DNA of 64,000 nt. It comes from Bacteroidota bacterium (GTDB lineage Bacteria > Bacteroidota > Bacteroidia > JAHEXY01). The notes beneath the pieces were generated by a model. That model was not told the origin of the DNA. It saw nothing but the letters and a program-made list of their open reading frames with translations, and did not search any database. The stretch spans positions 2,726 through 66,725 of the forward strand of contig JAHEXY010000015.1 in assembly GCA_023251875.1 (NCBI GenBank), given 5' to 3'. This document shows, piece after piece, positions 39,887-44,946 of this stretch (position 1 is its first letter; every line of letters begins with the position of its first letter). The position numbers and the translations under genes are program-made.

Positions 39887-41554
39887 TTAGGGTTTTTCTT
39901 TTCGAAAGACGGGGTAGCCATTAGCCGGATCTTTTTTAGGACTTATACCTGACATGATTGTGAGATTTTTTGCAGTATCAATCAATAATTTATCTGCATA
40001 ATACGTATCAGGATGAGTTAGTAAATCTATTTGTAAATTTTGATAAATTCTTAGGCTTTCATACATTCTCAAACCATCCTTTTGAAAAACACCTCTTAAT
40101 ATTAAAGCTATTTCTGCATCTGTAATATGGCCACTATTAGCCGACTCTGCTGAAATTGCTCCTTCCCATCCGGGAATTGCATCGTGTGTATTTTCGTCAT
40201 AATGATCATCAAGCGATAATAAATGGATTAATTCATGTGCAGCCGGACAATCATCTTTTAATTCTTGTCCCATCCTGCTTTTTCCCCTCCATATACCAGT
40301 ACGAGCATCGTTATTGACAAATGATCGTTCACTTGTATTTCCACTTACAGGATCGGTTACATAAGTATCATCAACCACTTCAATATAGTTTTGTTTCAAA
40401 TCATCGGGTAAGGTTGCAGGAGCAGCAGCAACAATAGTTACGGTTATATTAAATCTCACTGTATATTCCTGTCCGGTATTAGGATCTGTTGTTACAAATA
40501 TTCTATCATTATATTCCATATCAATTTGTTCTTGGATTGTTTGTGCTGTTTCTATTGTTGCACCTGAACCGTAAATATTAACCGTTGCCTCAATTGTTAT
40601 GGTTCGAGTACTTGGATCAAAAACTGCTAAGGCACTTTTTCCATCAGGATCAATTTTATTAATAGGATTATTTTCAAATACGTTATAGGATGAAAACGAT
40701 GGAAATTTTGTTTCCATTGGATCTGTACTCAACCACCTTCCCACTCTAGGGTCTAATATTCTTGCGCCAAAATCATACGCATTGCCGTTGCCGGCTAGTT
40801 CATTGTCTTTTTCTTTGCCTTGTATGCCGTAGCGGTAGTTTTCAGTTTTATAGTTACGGCCGGGCATTTGCATACCGTAGTTGTAGTAATCTGATGTGCT
40901 GCTTATTGTAGAATTGAAAAAATTGAAAAGATTGGAAGGTTGTTTGATATCGGTTATTGTAGCACGTATGTTTCCTAAATGATCTTTTAGTTCGTAGTTT
41001 TTGTTTCCTATTTTTCTATAGGCTACGGAATCGTTTGTTTTGTTTTGCAAATGATTTGTAGTTTCATTTTGATTTCCTATGCCTGAAATAGTTAATTCAG
41101 TTAGTTTTATACTGTCAATATTTTGTTTTTCATAAATGGCGATAACTTGGCTAGAGGTATTTCTTGTGTAAAAAGTAGTTGTTAGTTGCCCGTTGTTAGT
41201 TGTTAGTTGTTTGACGATGCGATTTCCCAATGCATCATACTTAAAACTTAAAACATCACCGGTGGTTTTGTGTACTTCTTTTACTTTTCCGTTGGCATGC
41301 CATATTATGGTATCAATATTTTGTTGTTCGTCTTTGGTTAATTGCCCATTGGCGTTATAGGAGTAATTGTTTGTTGATTGATTATCTATATCAATTGTTG
41401 AAACATGGCCTGGAACTACATCGTTTACATAATAAAGCTGATTGCTGGATGTGGGATAATGGTATTGAAATTGGTCAAGTTTATTTTGTGCAAATAAACT
41501 TAATGATGATATTAAAACAATCATAAAACTATAAAGTAAAATTAAATTTTTCAT
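39887..41554 (-). CDS. signal-peptide-bearing mini-Rhs (RHS repeat-associated core) polymorphic toxin with zincin-like metallopeptidase C-terminal domain
   Basis: YD-type repeats (YSYNANGQLT, FKYDALGNRIV); RHS core motif YRYGIQGKEKD..YDFGARILDPRVGRWLSTDPM..NNPINKIDPDGK; C-terminal domain contains AAHELIHLL (HExxH). Confidence 0.85.
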   Translation of the reverse strand: MKNLILLYSFMIVLISSLSLFAQNKLDQFQYHYPTSSNQLYYVNDVVPGHVSTIDIDNQSTNNYSYNANGQLTKDEQQNIDTIIWHANGKVKEVHKTTGDVLSFKYDALGNRIVKQLTTNNGQLTTTFYTRNTSSQVIAIYEKQNIDSIKLTELTISGIGNQNETTNHLQNKTNDSVAYRKIGNKNYELKDHLGNIRATITDIKQPSNLFNFFNSTISSTSDYYNYGMQMPGRNYKTENYRYGIQGKEKDNELAGNGNAYDFGARILDPRVGRWLSTDPMETKFPSFSSYNVFENNPINKIDPDGKSALAVFDPSTRTITIEATVNIYGSGATIETAQTIQEQIDMEYNDRIFVTTDPNTGQEYTVRFNITVTIVAAAPATLPDDLKQNYIEVVDDTYVTDPVSGNTSERSFVNNDARTGIWRGKSRMGQELKDDCPAAHELIHLLSLDDHYDENTHDAIPGWEGAISAESANSGHITDAEIALILRGVFQKDGLRMYESLRIYQNLQIDLLTHPDTYYADKLLIDTAKNLTIMSGISPKKDPANGYPVFRKEKP

Positions 41555-41559
41555 GAAAT
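40714..41559 (-). repeat. 846-bp near-identical duplication, copy 1 (partner 44101-44946)
   Basis: Constant offset of 3387 nt. The encoded 280 aa differ at one residue (M11 versus T11). Confidence 0.9.
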
Positions 41560-41592
41560 ATCTAATGATTATATCTTTAACTTTTAGGATAA

Positions 41593-41847
41593 TTATCTTA
41601 ATAACTTAAATGATTTTTCGGTTGAGTTGCTTTTAATTGAAACTATATAAATTCCATTTGAAAATAAGTTTAGGTCTATTTTCTCCATTGATTGATTAAT
41701 TTTTTTAAAATCGAGTATTTGCCCCCATGTATTAGAAATAATTAAAAATAATGGTTCTACTAAAACAGAAGCGGGAATTGAGAGCATATAATGCGCATAG
41801 TCAATATAGATGAGTTTAATATCAGCTATTGGCGTTTTGGGATTAGT
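41593..41847 (-). pseudogene. detached T9SS type A sorting domain, in frame with the upstream LRR ORF across a single TAA
   Basis: Reading on from the TAA at 41848-41850 in the same frame gives TNPKTPIADIKLIYIDYAHYMLSIPASVLVEPLFLIISNTWGQILDFKKI..IDLNLFSNGIYIVSIKSNSTEKSFKLLR, a typical sorting-domain ending. Confidence 0.7.
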
Positions 41848-42981: not shown

Positions 42982-43195
42982 AATAAAATGTTTAGGTGTA
43001 TATATAAGTTATAGCTTCTAACACTTTCCGGAAATTGAGTTATGGCTTGATTGTTAAATGTGTATTACGCTGAAATTAGTTTGAATGTTTATTGTAAGCT
43101 GCTAAAATTTATGTAATATATTTTTATATAGTAAGCTGGGATTAAGAACTTATTATGTTAGTAGTCCTGAGAATTGATTTTTATAGCCATATCTT

Positions 43196-44941
43196 TTATT
43201 GTGTTCTAAAATCTTCATCAGGATATAATTCTTGTAATTCTTCAATTACTTCGTGTTGTCTATCTATACTTGGATATCTCCCACTGCCATTATTAACTCC
43301 ATTTATACTACCCGATAGAAAGTTTACACTTATATATCGATTAGCGTTTTCGTCTTCTTTCACCGTTAAGGTATAAGCAATTAAAGCACCCATTTCCATT
43401 CCGGTTGCTGAAGCCAATGCCTCATGGCCTCTGTTTCTTTGATATACATCTGCATTAATTCCCTGTATATTTTCGGTACTAGCACTTATACCAATGGCAT
43501 TATCTTTAGTTTTGTAATTATACACTCCTATAAATACATTAGTATATGAAACATTGTATCCGTCTACTCTTTTTCGTGAATCATATGCACTTAATAAAAG
43601 ATTGTTACCCCAAAAAAATTTATTTACCCATGCATTTTTTTGATCACTCCAATATTCACTACCCTCTTTTCTCGTATCACCGTTTTTTGCAGGTTGAACC
43701 CAAAGCTGGCCTCCACCATTGGGCAGGGATACCCATAAGCCATAATTAGGATCATTCTGATGATCTTGCGATCCTGTACTTCTGTTTATCCAGTATTGAG
43801 CAAGTTCATTAGCTTCTCCAGGATTTAATTCTTCAGATTGAACCAAAACATATAAAGCTAAACCCCATGGACCTGCCCTTCTGGCAGCCATAACTTCTGC
43901 CGAAGATGAAGAGGTAACTAAAACTTCTTCTGCCTGATGATAAATGATTTGTCCGCTAGTTGTGATTTCAATTATCTGACCCGCATATGTAGTACCGGAT
44001 AGAAGTGGTGCCCAAAGAGTAGCCTTACCATCCGGATCTACCATCATAACTGGATTATTCCCCATGGCATTATAAGAAGAAACAGAAGGAAACTGATCAG
44101 CCATTGGATCTGTACTCAACCACCTTCCCACTCTAGGGTCTAATATTCTTGCGCCAAAATCATACGCATTGCCGTTGCCGGCTAGTTCATTGTCTTTTTC
44201 TTTGCCTTGTATGCCGTAGCGGTAGTTTTCAGTTTTATAGTTACGGCCGGGCATTTGCATACCGTAGTTGTAGTAATCTGATGTGCTGCTTATTGTAGAA
44301 TTGAAAAAATTGAAAAGATTGGAAGGTTGTTTGATATCGGTTATTGTAGCACGTATGTTTCCTAAATGATCTTTTAGTTCGTAGTTTTTGTTTCCTATTT
44401 TTCTATAGGCTACGGAATCGTTTGTTTTGTTTTGCAAATGATTTGTAGTTTCATTTTGATTTCCTATGCCTGAAATAGTTAATTCAGTTAGTTTTATACT
44501 GTCAATATTTTGTTTTTCATAAATGGCGATAACTTGGCTAGAGGTATTTCTTGTGTAAAAAGTAGTTGTTAGTTGCCCGTTGTTAGTTGTTAGTTGTTTG
44601 ACGATGCGATTTCCCAATGCATCATACTTAAAACTTAAAACATCACCGGTGGTTTTGTGTACTTCTTTTACTTTTCCGTTGGCATGCCATATTATGGTAT
44701 CAATATTTTGTTGTTCGTCTTTGGTTAATTGCCCATTGGCGTTATAGGAGTAATTGTTTGTTGATTGATTATCTATATCAATTGTTGAAACATGGCCTGG
44801 AACTACATCGTTTACATAATAAAGCTGATTGCTGGATGTGGGATAATGGTATTGAAATTGGTCAAGTTTATTTTGTGCAAATAAACTTAATGATGATATT
44901 AAAACAATCGTAAAACTATAAAGTAAAATTAAATTTTTCAT
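43196..44941 (-). CDS. second mini-Rhs polymorphic toxin with an unrelated ~300-aa C-terminal domain of unknown type
   Basis: The N-terminal 280 aa match the 39887-41554 product except for one residue. Divergence begins after RWLSTDPM; NNPVMMVDPDGK then a novel tail. I prefer the start at MKNLILLYSF (44941), matching the paralogue, over the track start at 45019. Confidence 0.85.
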   Translation of the reverse strand: MKNLILLYSFTIVLISSLSLFAQNKLDQFQYHYPTSSNQLYYVNDVVPGHVSTIDIDNQSTNNYSYNANGQLTKDEQQNIDTIIWHANGKVKEVHKTTGDVLSFKYDALGNRIVKQLTTNNGQLTTTFYTRNTSSQVIAIYEKQNIDSIKLTELTISGIGNQNETTNHLQNKTNDSVAYRKIGNKNYELKDHLGNIRATITDIKQPSNLFNFFNSTISSTSDYYNYGMQMPGRNYKTENYRYGIQGKEKDNELAGNGNAYDFGARILDPRVGRWLSTDPMADQFPSVSSYNAMGNNPVMMVDPDGKATLWAPLLSGTTYAGQIIEITTSGQIIYHQAEEVLVTSSSSAEVMAARRAGPWGLALYVLVQSEELNPGEANELAQYWINRSTGSQDHQNDPNYGLWVSLPNGGGQLWVQPAKNGDTRKEGSEYWSDQKNAWVNKFFWGNNLLLSAYDSRKRVDGYNVSYTNVFIGVYNYKTKDNAIGISASTENIQGINADVYQRNRGHEALASATGMEMGALIAYTLTVKEDENANRYISVNFLSGSINGVNNGSGRYPSIDRQHEVIEELQELYPDEDFRTQ

Positions 44942-44946
44942 GAAAT
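44101..44946 (-). repeat. 846-bp near-identical duplication, copy 2
   Basis: See 40714-41559. Confidence 0.9.

What the first reader, a model, noticed from the sequence alone, without database searches (positions are those of the whole stretch)
39887..44946. Pair of mini-Rhs polymorphic toxins with a near-identical 280-aa N-terminus and swapped C-terminal toxin domains
An 846-bp block (40714-41559 and 44101-44946) is essentially identical; the encoded proteins differ only at residue 11 (M/T). Identity ends right after the RHS core motif ..YDFGARILDPRVGRWLSTDPM. Each copy then has its own PxxxxDPDGK boundary (NNPINKIDPDGK versus NNPVMMVDPDGK) and an unrelated tail. One tail is a ~270-aa domain with HELIH (zincin-like). 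The other is a ~300-aa domain I cannot assign. This is the classic C-terminal displacement signature of polymorphic toxins. Here, however, the Rhs part is only ~250 aa (too short for a full shell) and begins with a Sec signal peptide. The locus abuts tRNA-Cys.
Basis: partly seen in the sequence, partly recalled or inferred. Interest (0 to 1): 0.7.

Follow-up and report, generated by a model that had tools for sequence, protein, structure and literature searches.

The report
Signal-peptide mini-Rhs toxin gene pair
Two neighbouring genes in a Bacteroidota genome share a near-identical exported "stub" of an Rhs toxin carrier but end in different payloads, one a zinc protease and one a domain with no known relative. 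Related loci suggest such stubs may be swappable caps for a separately encoded Rhs shell.

Summary
Window 40714-41559 and 44101-44946 are 846 nt with one mismatch (M11T). Independent metagenome assemblies reproduce both upstream flanks and the tail-B junction, so this is not an artefact.

Each gene encodes:
- a Sec signal peptide (cleavage FA|Q);
- only the last ~283 aa of an Rhs protein, including the TIGR03696 core and both autoprotease aspartates (D278, D302);
- a different C-terminal domain.

Tail A is a divergent member of a snapalysin-like metzincin family that Pfam and NCBIfam do not hold. It has about 100 remote relatives, nearly all directly after Rhs cores. Tail B (275 aa) has no relative among 1.84 billion representative proteins.

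Neither gene has a downstream immunity gene, a T9SS sorting domain or an adjacent full-length Rhs.

Signal peptide plus truncated Rhs plus variable tail recurs in other Bacteroidota. In two related loci a YD-repeat shell ORF stops exactly where one to four tandem signal-peptide/core/toxin genes begin, which looks like a split Rhs. I found no description of that arrangement.

Best reading: Sec-exported, self-cleaving truncated-Rhs polymorphic toxins, working alone or as exchangeable caps. This is a new variant of a known kind.

The parts
39887..41554 (-). Gene A: 555-aa protein made of a signal peptide, a truncated Rhs and a metzincin-like tail
   Evidence: ORF. RHS_repeat and TIGR03696 hits. 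Singleton cluster at 90% identity among 15 billion proteins.
43196..44941 (-). Gene B: 581-aa protein made of a signal peptide, a truncated Rhs and an orphan tail. An upstream TTG at 45019 would add 26 aa, but the ATG at 44941 matches gene A.
   Evidence: The C-terminal 347 aa are reproduced in independent contig L086.
40714..41559 (-). Repeat copy 1 (846 nt): 5 nt of leader plus codons 1-280 of gene A
   Evidence: Position-by-position comparison, one mismatch at 41523.
44101..44946 (-). Repeat copy 2 (846 nt): 5 nt of leader plus codons 1-280 of gene B
   Evidence: The upstream flank and T11 are confirmed in L084.
41489..41554 (-). Predicted Sec signal peptide of A (MKNLILLYSFMIVLISSLSLFA|Q). 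The same element in B lies at 44876-44941.
   Evidence: Read from the sequence (n-region, h-region, then FA|Q). Q at +1 also occurs in the neighbouring T9SS cargo proteins (NA|Q, FS|Q) and in relatives P0001, P0031, P0036 and P0062. No signal-peptide predictor was available.
40640..40888 (-). Rhs-associated core of A (residues 223-305) with putative catalytic D278 and D302. The same element in B lies at 44027-44275.
   Evidence: TIGR03696 at 44.7 and 44.0 bits against a cut-off of 32.5. D278 is invariant and D302 nearly invariant in alignment A3. They correspond to RhsA D1324 and D1346 (PMC8765631).
40637..40714 (-). Diverged last 26 codons of the core in A (E281-K306). Self-cleavage is predicted after K306. 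The same element in B lies at 44024-44101.
40079..40636 (-). Tail A metzincin-like domain (protein residues 307-492). The HELIH motif lies at 40223-40237.
   Evidence: About 100 remote homologues. Invariant H, E, H, D and W columns. Snapalysin is the best profile hit and the best fold hit.
39890..40078 (-). C-terminal extension of tail A (about 63 aa), helical, low model confidence, not shared with the family
   Evidence: pLDDT about 54 over tail residues 190-249. Homologues end earlier.
43199..44023 (-). Tail B: 275-aa domain with no detectable relative
   Evidence: No Pfam, NCBIfam or meaningful PDB hit. No hit in the 5.8-billion word-indexed search. Only itself in the exhaustive HMMER search of 1.84 billion representatives. 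The AF2 single-sequence model has pLDDT 36. The sequence is identical in an independent assembly.
41593..42981 (-). Intervening gene inside the 3387-nt repeat period: an LRR+Ig ORF (41848-42981), an in-frame TAA (41848-41850) and a T9SS C-terminal-domain ORF (41593-41787)
   Evidence: The same gene calls appear in independent assemblies.
45347..45418 (-). tRNA-Cys(GCA), 405 nt upstream of gene B
   Evidence: ARAGORN. The tRNA 3' end is not repeated elsewhere in the window.

Best explanation
Genes A and B are paralogous, independently translated, Sec-exported truncated-Rhs polymorphic toxins.

Shown:
- Each product has a 22-aa signal peptide and only the last ~283 aa of an Rhs protein. That stub holds a few YD hairpins and the Rhs-associated core, with both aspartates of the Rhs autoprotease.
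- Each then carries a different C-terminal domain.
- Tail A belongs to a family of snapalysin-like zinc metallopeptidase domains that sit directly after Rhs cores.
- Tail B is an orphan domain.
- The 846-nt identity has sharp ends: 5 nt before the ATG, and inside the core between the two catalytic aspartates.

Inferred:
- The identity tract is a recent recombination or gene-conversion tract. Each tail arrived together with its own last 26 core codons.
- The precursor is exported to the periplasm. The Rhs stub folds as the plug/autoprotease module and cuts after K306, releasing the tail.
- The stub cannot encapsulate a 250-275-aa payload. Its roles are processing and serving as the homology handle for tail exchange.
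- Passage across the outer membrane is unknown. Candidates are vesicles, lysis, or piggy-backing on the T9SS cargo genes that directly follow each toxin gene.
- Recombination between the two direct repeats would delete 3387 nt and put tail A behind gene B's upstream region.
For: - Repeat and junctions. Independent assemblies.
- Rhs identity.
- Short stub: the mature stub aligns with TccC2 residues 428-663 of 664 and with the last ~90 residues of YenC2 and TccC3 shells.
- Catalytic aspartates: together with PMC8765631.
- Signal peptide is a conserved feature. The closest relative P0001 (46% identity over 98% of the query) has an aligned signal peptide and the same junction (SFS|QTTIDNQTYNY versus LFA|QNKLDQFQYHY). 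P0031, P0036, P0062, P0106, P0134 and P0141 are also signal peptide plus Rhs core plus tail.
- Stand-alone relatives exist. P0141 (signal peptide, core, tail-A-like domain) forms a two-gene unit with an overlapping 177-aa polytopic membrane protein and has no Rhs shell nearby, in 7 contigs. P0134 is similar.
- No Rhs shell gene lies in the 64-kb window.
- Tail A as a metzincin.
- Zhang et al. 2012 list Sec-dependent RHS toxins and RHS-linked metallopeptidase toxin domains for which they found no immunity protein (PMC3482391).
- Tail B is a 275-codon stop-free extension in ~32% G+C DNA and is identical in other assemblies.
Against: - No immunity gene follows either toxin, although tail-A relatives P0141 and P0134 have membrane-protein partners.
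- Gene A departs from its family at four near-invariant positions: G137I, G141S, N160A, and M162S, the Met-turn-like residue. It may be weakened or retargeted.
- Autoproteolysis of an Rhs core without its shell has not been shown, as far as I know.
- No route across the outer membrane is evident, since neither gene has a T9SS C-terminal domain.
- Tail B has no assignable activity.
- The closest relative, P0001, lies 200 nt downstream of a 2209-aa DUF6443 protein, which favours the cap model below.
Confidence: 0.45

Rival explanations
1. Split, two-component Rhs. A and B are exchangeable 'cap' subunits (plug, autoprotease and payload), each exported by its own signal peptide. In the periplasm they dock onto a separately encoded Rhs shell that lacks its own core. 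The logic resembles TcB-TcC, where alternative C subunits encoded at other loci load one shell. The shell gene would lie outside this window.
For: - L002: a YD-repeat ORF of at least 1256 aa ends '...IYGADRLGQRTDVIDLR*' just before the core position. 32 nt later P0062 starts with a signal peptide followed by 'KMSKQYELKNHLGN...', the core and a tail.
- L090: a shell ORF ends '...IYGGERIGLFKSNELIGPETPGTQFSIKFIIF*'. Four tandem genes follow, each with a signal peptide, a core and a different tail, with no immunity ORFs between them.
- NCBIfam finds YD repeats but no TIGR03696 in both shells, and TIGR03696 in every cap.
- P0031 and P0036 plus a third gene form a similar tandem array.
- P0001, the closest relative of A and B, lies 200 nt after a 2209-aa DUF6443 protein with no gene between. 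That protein is shorter than all seven continuous relatives inspected, which are 2345-3203 aa.
- An Rhs shell with no plug and no payload has no obvious use alone.
- Precedent: the Yersinia entomophaga ABC toxin packages C subunits encoded at distinct loci (PMC11067744).
Against: - No shell gene lies in the 64-kb window.
- The split point of A, B and P0001 (~280 aa before the cleavage site) differs from that of L002 and L090 (~130 aa). For the A/B type, the C-terminus of the upstream protein could not be read because no DNA was available.
- P0141 and P0134 stand alone without a shell.
- The core-less shells could be genes truncated by cassette insertion.
- How an unfolded payload would enter a pre-formed shell after export is unknown.
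Confidence: 0.35
2. Silent or decaying orphan cassettes. A and B are displaced Rhs C-terminal modules kept as a recombination reservoir for a full-length rhs gene elsewhere. On this reading the apparent signal peptide has no function.
For: - The mature N-terminus of A and B starts at the same 'MDxLxYxY..NxL' position where classical orphan modules begin in Bacteroidales and Saprospira arrays (L052, L061).
- Most of the 120 listed homologues look like start-less Rhs C-terminal fragments.
- Gene A has substitutions at near-invariant family positions.
- No immunity genes are present.
Against: - Both ORFs are intact over 555 and 581 codons in AT-rich DNA.
- The signal peptide is retained, with a proper cleavage motif, in a relative only 46% identical and in several other lineages.
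- Classical orphans come with immunity genes and lie downstream of a main rhs gene. Neither is the case here.
- A signal peptide in the middle of a recombinant protein would be harmful. Only the part downstream of it could act as a homology arm.
Confidence: 0.1
3. Not toxins. A and B are secreted enzymes or surface-associated factors (a protease and an unknown domain) that use the Rhs core only as a self-cleaving pro-region. They may work together with the adjacent T9SS surface proteins, an LRR-Ig protein and a tail-fibre-like S74 protein.
For: - There are no immunity genes.
- Each gene is directly followed by a gene for a T9SS cargo or adhesin-like protein.
- TANFOR toxins of Bacteroidetes likewise neighbour T9SS substrates (PMC7073777).
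- Snapalysin itself is a secreted protease, not a toxin.
Against: - The tail-A family occurs almost only behind Rhs cores, including one 1937-aa Rhs protein.
- Its relatives pair with small membrane proteins that look like immunity proteins.
- Tail swapping behind a conserved handle is the hallmark of conflict systems.
Confidence: 0.07
4. Assembly artefact. Two strain haplotypes of one locus were joined into a false tandem.
For: - The source is a 71-kb metagenome-type contig.
- Other assemblies break inside the repeat.
- The junction between the repeat and tail A was not seen in a second assembly.
Against: - One independent contig carries tail B, LRR-Ig, the CTD ORF and the start of the repeat, with M11. 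Another carries the tRNA flank and the start of the repeat, with T11.
- With two entries to the repeat and two exits, one of which loops back, the order in the window is the only linear path that uses every edge.
- The one-base difference is linked to its flank.
Confidence: 0.03

Closest known systems
Rhs/YD-repeat polymorphic toxins (T6SS RhsA, Tse5 and Tse15; Gram-positive WapA)
   Same: - YD repeat and TIGR03696 core.
- PxxxxDPxG boundary with both autoprotease aspartates.
- A variable C-terminal payload exchanged by recombination in the conserved core.
   Different: - Only ~283 aa of Rhs, against the ~100-kDa cocoon described for Rhs repeat regions (PMC8765631).
- No PAAR, VgrG-binding, DUF6443 or other delivery domain, just a Sec signal peptide.
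- No immunity gene and no upstream main gene.
- The cleavage-site residue is K rather than L or W.
Tc (ABC) toxin TcB-TcC cocoon with alternative or orphan TcC subunits
   Same: - The best PDB sequence matches of the stub are TcC subunits (YenC2, TccC3, TccC2).
- The shell is built from more than one polypeptide.
- The payload-bearing subunit is interchangeable and can be encoded elsewhere (PMC11067744).
   Different: - TcC contributes ~680 aa of shell. A and B match only its last third.
- No TcA or TcB gene is present.
- Here each piece would be exported separately by Sec. In the related loci the split lies just before the plug.
Orphan Rhs C-terminal cassettes (rhs 'rearrangement hot spot' arrays)
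   Same: - The homology arm (last ~280 aa) is the same length and starts at the same position as in Bacteroidota orphan modules (L052, L061).
- Unrelated tails follow the arm.
   Different: Orphans lack a start codon and signal peptide, lie downstream of a full-length rhs gene and come with immunity genes. A and B have none of these features.
Snapalysin (peptidase family M7) and other minimal metzincins
   Same: - Tail A's family shares the HExxHxxGLxD(R/H)Y zinc site with Asp as the third ligand.
- Snapalysin is the top hit by profile (E=0.007) and by fold (probability 0.96).
   Different: - Sequence identity is ~11-13%, and no hit reaches the Pfam M7 threshold.
- The domain is ~185 aa, with an extra N-terminal beta/alpha unit.
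- It is attached to Rhs cores.
- Gene A has S for the motif Gly and S for the family's conserved Met.
Tox-MPTase1-5 metallopeptidase toxin domains and TANFOR polymorphic toxins of Bacteroidetes
   Same: - Tox-MPTase domains are RHS-linked zincin toxin domains, often Sec-dependent and without a known immunity protein (PMC3482391).
- TANFOR toxins have a signal peptide, no T9SS C-terminal domain, and T9SS-cargo genes as neighbours (PMC7073777).
   Different: - No Pfam Tox-MPTase model matches tail A or 21 of its relatives.
- No TANFOR domain is present.

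Membership tests
Rhs/YD-repeat polymorphic toxin | YD/RHS repeats | tested here: met
   PF05593 at residues 85-122, with E=5e-6 (A) and 2e-7 (B), above the gathering score. TIGR01643 is also above its cut-off.
Rhs/YD-repeat polymorphic toxin | Rhs-associated core (TIGR03696) ending in PxxxxDPxG | tested here: met
   44.7 and 44.0 bits against a cut-off of 32.5, residues 223-305. 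The motifs are NNPINKIDPDGK and NNPVMMVDPDGK.
Rhs/YD-repeat polymorphic toxin | Aspartyl autoprotease dyad and self-cleavage | tested here: inconclusive
   D278 and D302 are present and conserved in alignment A3, at the positions of RhsA D1324 and D1346. The spacing is 24 residues against 22. Cleavage cannot be tested with these tools.
Rhs/YD-repeat polymorphic toxin | Complete beta-cocoon shell that encapsulates the payload | tested here: not met
   Only 283 aa lie between the signal peptide and the cleavage site. They align with the last ~235 residues of a 664-aa TcC and the last ~90 residues of other shells. Continuous relatives are 2345-3203 aa.
Rhs/YD-repeat polymorphic toxin | Cognate immunity gene directly downstream | tested here: not met
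   No same-strand ORF of at least 20 aa lies in 39706-39886, and only one 30-aa TTG ORF (43153-43245) that overlaps the 3' end of gene B lies near 42982-43195. The next genes encode exported T9SS-type proteins.
Rhs/YD-repeat polymorphic toxin | N-terminal trafficking domain (PAAR, VgrG-binding, DUF6443, TcB-binding) | tested here: not met
   Only a 22-aa signal peptide precedes the Rhs stub.
Orphan Rhs C-terminal cassette | No own start or export signal, located downstream of a full-length rhs gene, followed by an immunity gene | tested here: not met
   A and B have an ATG and a signal peptide. No other Rhs core or shell lies in the window. Compare the classical array in L052.
Metzincin / snapalysin-like zinc peptidase (tail A) | HExxHxxGxx(H/D) zinc site | tested here: met
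   H134, E135, H138 and D144 are invariant in the 22-sequence family alignment and present in gene A (HELIHLLSLDD), although the motif Gly is Ser in gene A.
Metzincin / snapalysin-like zinc peptidase (tail A) | Met-turn methionine | tested here: not met
   The family has GWEGNIMAE with M in at least 90% of members. Gene A has GWEGAISAE. That this M is the Met-turn residue is inferred, not shown.
Metzincin / snapalysin-like zinc peptidase (tail A) | Metzincin fold or a curated family match | tested here: inconclusive
   The AF2 model has pLDDT 76.8, with 86-96 in the core. The top Foldseek hits are snapalysin 4hx3 and 1kuh (probability 0.96, E about 0.01, TM 0.31-0.55), followed by ADAM, ADAMTS, MMP and archaemetzincin entries. 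The Pfam M7, M6, M10 and M12 hits are all below threshold.
Tox-MPTase / Ntox families held in Pfam | Match to the family profile | tested here: not met
   No Pfam family matches either tail at E up to 10. None of the 22 tail-A family members hits a Tox-MPTase model.
T9SS cargo | C-terminal sorting domain (type A or type B) | tested here: not met
   Neither A nor B has a Por_Secre_tail or CHU_C hit, while neighbouring genes do.
Two-component (split) Rhs, TcB-TcC-like | A partner shell protein that lacks its own core | not testable with these tools
   No such gene lies in the window and the rest of the genome is not available. Related loci L002 and L090 do show core-less shells followed by signal-peptide/core/toxin genes.

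The most novel reading that the evidence does not exclude
Some Bacteroidota run a split Rhs machine. A large YD-repeat shell is encoded without a plug or payload. One to several small genes each encode a signal peptide, the Rhs plug/autoprotease and a different toxin. These caps are exported separately and complete the shell in the periplasm. Genes A and B would be two such interchangeable caps, one carrying a wholly new payload domain. The arsenal would then diversify by duplicating 1.7-kb cap genes instead of recombining a 7-9-kb gene.
Probability: 0.3. Interest if true: 0.8.

Novelty: new variant of a known kind. Interest (0 to 1): 0.6.

Why it matters
- Current structural work treats the Rhs cocoon as the container that makes the toxin safe and deliverable. 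A recurrent, conserved class of exported proteins that keeps only the plug/autoprotease questions whether the core can work without the shell. Alternatively, it points to a shell-plus-cap system that assembles after export.
- It gives a small, tractable construct (~300 aa) for studying Rhs autoproteolysis.
- It adds two candidate payload families. One is a snapalysin-like Rhs-associated metallopeptidase family that Pfam and NCBIfam do not hold, with membrane-protein partners in relatives. The other is a 275-aa domain with no relative in 1.84 billion representative sequences.
- How Bacteroidota outside the gut T6SS lineages deliver Rhs toxins is largely open. These loci, which sit next to T9SS cargo genes, offer an entry point.

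Tried and rejected
- Pfam and NCBIfam scans of both tails at E up to 10 gave nothing useful.
- PDB sequence searches of both tails gave only chance-level hits.
- Word-indexed searches of both tails against 5.8 billion proteins gave no hits. Tail A's relatives appeared only in the exhaustive HMMER search.
- The AF2 model of tail B without an alignment had pLDDT 36, so it was not used for a fold search.
- Genomic island at tRNA-Cys: the tRNA 3' end is not duplicated and no integrase lies nearby, so this was rejected.
- T9SS export through an own C-terminal domain was rejected.
- Immunity gene: none lies on the same strand. The LRR-Ig and S74 neighbours are exported proteins, not typical immunity proteins.
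- Promoter and terminator scans were at chance level. One Bacteroidota-type TAnnTTTG lies 208 nt upstream of gene B and none directly upstream of gene A. Nothing was concluded from this.
- Source genome or close relatives: none exceeded 42% identity in 185,579 species genomes. A and B are singletons at 90% identity. Exact look-ups of A and of P0122 found nothing.
- The contig carrying P0001 and its 2209-aa neighbour has no retrievable DNA, so the end of that neighbour could not be read.
- The Python machine was lost, so no dot-plots, tail clustering or statistics beyond the tools could be run.
- The literature search found no paper mentioning DUF6443 and none describing a signal-peptide-bearing truncated Rhs or a split Rhs of this kind.

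Full report
OBSERVATION. The repeat is real and exact. At an offset of 3387 nt, window 40714-41559 matches 44101-44946 over 846 nt. The single mismatch is at 41523/44910. Both copies lie on the minus strand and cover 5 nt of leader plus codons 1-280 of two ORFs. Gene A is 39887-41554 (555 aa). Gene B is 43196-44941 (581 aa from the ATG that matches gene A). The one difference is M11 in A against T11 in B. Upstream of ATTTCATG the flanks are unrelated. Downstream, identity ends after ...GRWLSTDPM. The next 26 codons are homologous but diverged (ETKFPSFSSYNVFENNPINKIDPDGK versus ADQFPSVSSYNAMGNNPVMMVDPDGK), and the remaining 249 and 275 codons are unrelated. Only two copies of the block and only two Rhs-core sites exist in the 64 kb. 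tRNA-Cys lies 405 nt upstream of gene B.

ARTEFACT TEST. The source is a 71,328-nt NCBI contig, and A and B are singletons at 90% identity among about 15 billion proteins. Independent assemblies of related samples cover the region.
- ENA contig L086, seen in three samples, runs from 46 codons inside the repeat through tail B, the LRR-Ig gene and the T9SS-CTD ORF, and then 57 codons into the next repeat copy, which carries M11.
- ENA contig L084 starts 57 codons inside the other copy, which carries T11, and continues through the tRNA-Cys region into the flank on that side.
- Both contigs stop 141-171 nt into the repeat, which is what a k=141 assembler does at a true repeat.
- The repeat therefore has two entries and two exits, and one exit (tail B) loops back to the second entry. 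The order in the window is the only linear path that uses all edges.
- The junction between the repeat and tail A was not seen a second time.

WHAT THE SHARED PART IS. Pfam finds an RHS repeat at residues 85-122. NCBIfam finds the Rhs-associated core TIGR03696 at residues 223-305, above its cut-off. Against solved structures, the mature stub aligns with the C-terminal end of TcC and Rhs shells only. The matches are residues 603-689 of the 690-residue YenC2 chain, the last ~90 residues of TcdB2-TccC3, and residues 428-663 of the 664-residue TccC2 chain. In genomes, the best matches (at most 42% identity) are the last ~280 residues before the toxin in continuous Bacteroidota Rhs proteins of 2345-3203 aa.

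In the 22-sequence alignment A3, D278 is invariant and D302 nearly invariant. They sit in 'STDP' and 'IDPDGK', the positions of the catalytic dyad D1324/D1346 of Pseudomonas protegens RhsA, which cleaves after the residue following DPxG (PMC8765631). Cleavage after K306 is therefore predicted, not shown. The recombination junction at codon 280 lies between the two aspartates.

THE N-TERMINUS. MKNLILLYSFMIVLISSLSLFA|QNK has the n-region, h-region and c-region of a Sec signal peptide, with Gln at +1. From my own knowledge, this fits the Bacteroidetes 'Q-rule' for signal peptidase I substrates. The neighbouring T9SS cargo genes of this window have the same pattern (NA|Q, FS|Q). The mature protein begins at KLDQFQYHY..NQL. 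In continuous Rhs proteins this is an internal segment ('MDxLTYxY..NRL'), and it is also where classical orphan modules begin.

The signal peptide is not an accident of gene calling. The closest relative, P0001 (46% identity over 98% of the query), aligns from residue 7 and has SFS|QTTIDNQTYNY at the same junction. P0001 is cut by contig ends 13 aa after DPDGK in two assemblies. That would fit tails that vary or are repeated in that population too.

TAIL A. Direct Pfam, NCBIfam, PDB and word-indexed searches found nothing. An exhaustive HMMER search of 1.84 billion representatives found about 100 relatives (E up to 1e-3, 28-41% identity) covering tail residues ~5-186. Of the 29 relatives aligned, most show the domain immediately after an Rhs core (...DPDGxDA), and another relative is a 1937-aa Rhs protein.

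The family consensus is G.WR..GR.G..L..DDPAPHEFGHLLGL.DRY....GWEGNIMAE..G.VEQRNI, with invariant H134, E135, H138, D144 and W157. A profile of the family hits snapalysin (1c7k, 4hx3; HETGHVLGLPDHY) at E=0.007. An AlphaFold model built with this alignment has pLDDT 76.8, with 86-96 over the core. Its best PDB fold matches are snapalysin (probability 0.96), followed by ADAM17, ADAMTS-5, MMPs and archaemetzincin. The E-values are weak, but the two independent methods agree. Individual family members give only sub-threshold Pfam hits to M6, M7, M10 and M12, and none to Tox-MPTase models.

Tail A is therefore a divergent member of a snapalysin-like metzincin payload family that Pfam and NCBIfam do not hold. 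Gene A keeps the zinc ligands and the catalytic Glu. It differs at four near-invariant positions (G137I, G141S, N160A, M162S) and has an extra ~63-aa helical C-terminal extension.

Two relatives with the same architecture (signal peptide, Rhs core, this domain) stand alone. P0141 overlaps a 177-aa polytopic membrane protein, in seven contigs. P0134 lies among small membrane-anchored ORFs. These neighbours look like immunity proteins and suggest that the family acts at the cell envelope.

TAIL B. No Pfam, NCBIfam or meaningful PDB hit was found. The word-indexed search found nothing. The exhaustive search returned only tail B itself. The single-sequence model is uninformative (pLDDT 36). Tail B is a 275-codon open frame in ~32% G+C DNA, it is somewhat richer in G+C (up to 0.42) than its surroundings, and it is identical in an independent assembly. 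It is therefore coding sequence, but its activity is unknown.

CONTEXT.
- There are no immunity candidates. No same-strand ORF of at least 20 aa lies between gene A and the next gene. Downstream of gene B there is only a 30-aa ORF that overlaps its end.
- Gene B is followed by an LRR+Ig gene whose T9SS C-terminal domain is cut off by an in-frame TAA.
- Gene A is followed by a tail-fibre-like S74 protein with a T9SS domain.
- Neither A nor B has a T9SS domain.
- The window is otherwise ordinary chromosome from a Bacteroidota organism rich in T9SS cargo. It holds no Rhs shell, integrase or phage genes.

RELATED LOCI: A RECURRENT ARCHITECTURE AND A POSSIBLE SPLIT RHS. Most homologues of the stub are start-less fragments or parts of full-length proteins. 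Classical arrays (main rhs, then immunity, orphan, immunity, and so on) occur in L052 and L061. A minority carry a signal peptide directly before a truncated Rhs.
- In L002, a YD-repeat ORF of at least 1256 aa stops at '...IYGADRLGQRTDVIDLR'. That is exactly before the position of the core. 32 nt later P0062 begins, with a signal peptide, then 'KMSKQYELKNHLGN...', the core and a tail. A 117-aa ORF follows.
- In L090, a shell ORF stops at the same place. Four tandem genes follow, each with a signal peptide (cleavage before Q), a core and a different tail, one of them containing PT-HINT. No ORFs lie between them.
- NCBIfam finds YD repeats but no core in both shells, and the core in all caps.
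- P0031 and P0036 plus a third gene form another such array.
- P0001 lies 200 nt after a 2209-aa DUF6443 protein with nothing between them.

This pattern suggests a two-gene Rhs in which the plug, autoprotease and payload are a separately exported and easily multiplied subunit. It recalls TcB-TcC, where C subunits from other loci load one shell (PMC11067744). I found no paper that describes it. Whether it applies to A and B cannot be decided, because the rest of the genome is unavailable and stand-alone cases also exist.

VERDICT. The polymorphic-toxin reading is supported in architecture, but this is not classical C-terminal displacement. A and B are complete, signal-peptide-bearing, truncated-Rhs genes without immunity partners.
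- Most likely mechanism (0.45): Sec export, self-cleavage after K306 by the retained core, and release of a metalloprotease (A) or an unknown effector (B). The 846-nt block serves as the recombination handle.
- Main rival (0.35): A and B are caps of a split Rhs shell.
- Minor rivals: silent orphan cassettes (0.1), non-toxic secreted enzymes (0.07) and an assembly artefact (0.03).

This is a new variant of a known kind, of moderate to high interest.

Noticed in passing
window 41593-42981 (-): An LRR+Ig ORF (377 aa, with a signal peptide) and a 64-aa T9SS C-terminal-domain ORF are in the same frame, separated only by a TAA at 41848-41850. Independent ENA and Logan assemblies give the same gene calls. 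This is therefore a real nonsense codon, either a fresh pseudogene or read-through, and not a sequencing error.
   Followed up: partly
L090 1-7863 (NCBI GCA_023250995.1, JAHEZO010000190.1) and L002 84-5440: A YD-repeat shell ORF lacks the Rhs core and ends just before the core position. Four tandem genes (L090) or one gene (L002) follow, each with a signal peptide, an Rhs core and a variable tail. This looks like a split Rhs and appears undescribed. Several L090 tails hold long Gly/Ala-rich hydrophobic stretches, and one holds PT-HINT.
   Followed up: partly
window 38332-39705 (-): A 457-aa exported protein combines YadA-head-like repeats, a Peptidase_S74 (endosialidase chaperone) domain and a T9SS sorting domain. 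It resembles a phage tail fibre used as T9SS cargo. An independent ENA contig breaks inside this gene, near window position 38600, so it may be variable or repetitive in the population.
   Followed up: no
window 25791-36944 (+): A 3717-aa T9SS cargo protein combines beta-helix, CARDB, PKD and Por_Secre_tail domains, with large internal repeats visible in the translation.
   Followed up: no
window 43300-44200: G+C rises to 0.37-0.42 across the tail-B coding region, against about 0.28-0.35 in its surroundings. This fits foreign origin of that cassette.
   Followed up: no
window 38077-38206: A 47-nt inverted repeat (79% complementary, 36-nt spacer) lies in the intergenic region between the radical-SAM gene and the S74 gene.
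   Followed up: no
window 45732-49537 (+): On the other side of tRNA-Cys lie an SPFH/Band-7 protein with a GYF_2 domain, an overlapping PD-(D/E)XK_3 gene, a zinc-ribbon protein and a RhuM/Fic protein. Together they look like a defence or stress cluster.
   Followed up: no
L092 5169-6786 and L091 753-2436: Stand-alone genes for a signal peptide, an Rhs core and a tail-A-like metzincin are paired with a 177-aa polytopic membrane protein (overlapping, in 7 contigs) or with small membrane-anchored ORFs. These are candidate immunity proteins for this metallopeptidase family.
   Followed up: partly
L001 1-1181: Two assemblies of the closest relative P0001 both end 13 codons after DPDGK, which would fit tails that vary or are repeated in that population. 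A hairpin (GAAAACCTGCAAGG...CCTTGCAGGTTT) lies about 150 nt upstream of its start.
   Followed up: no
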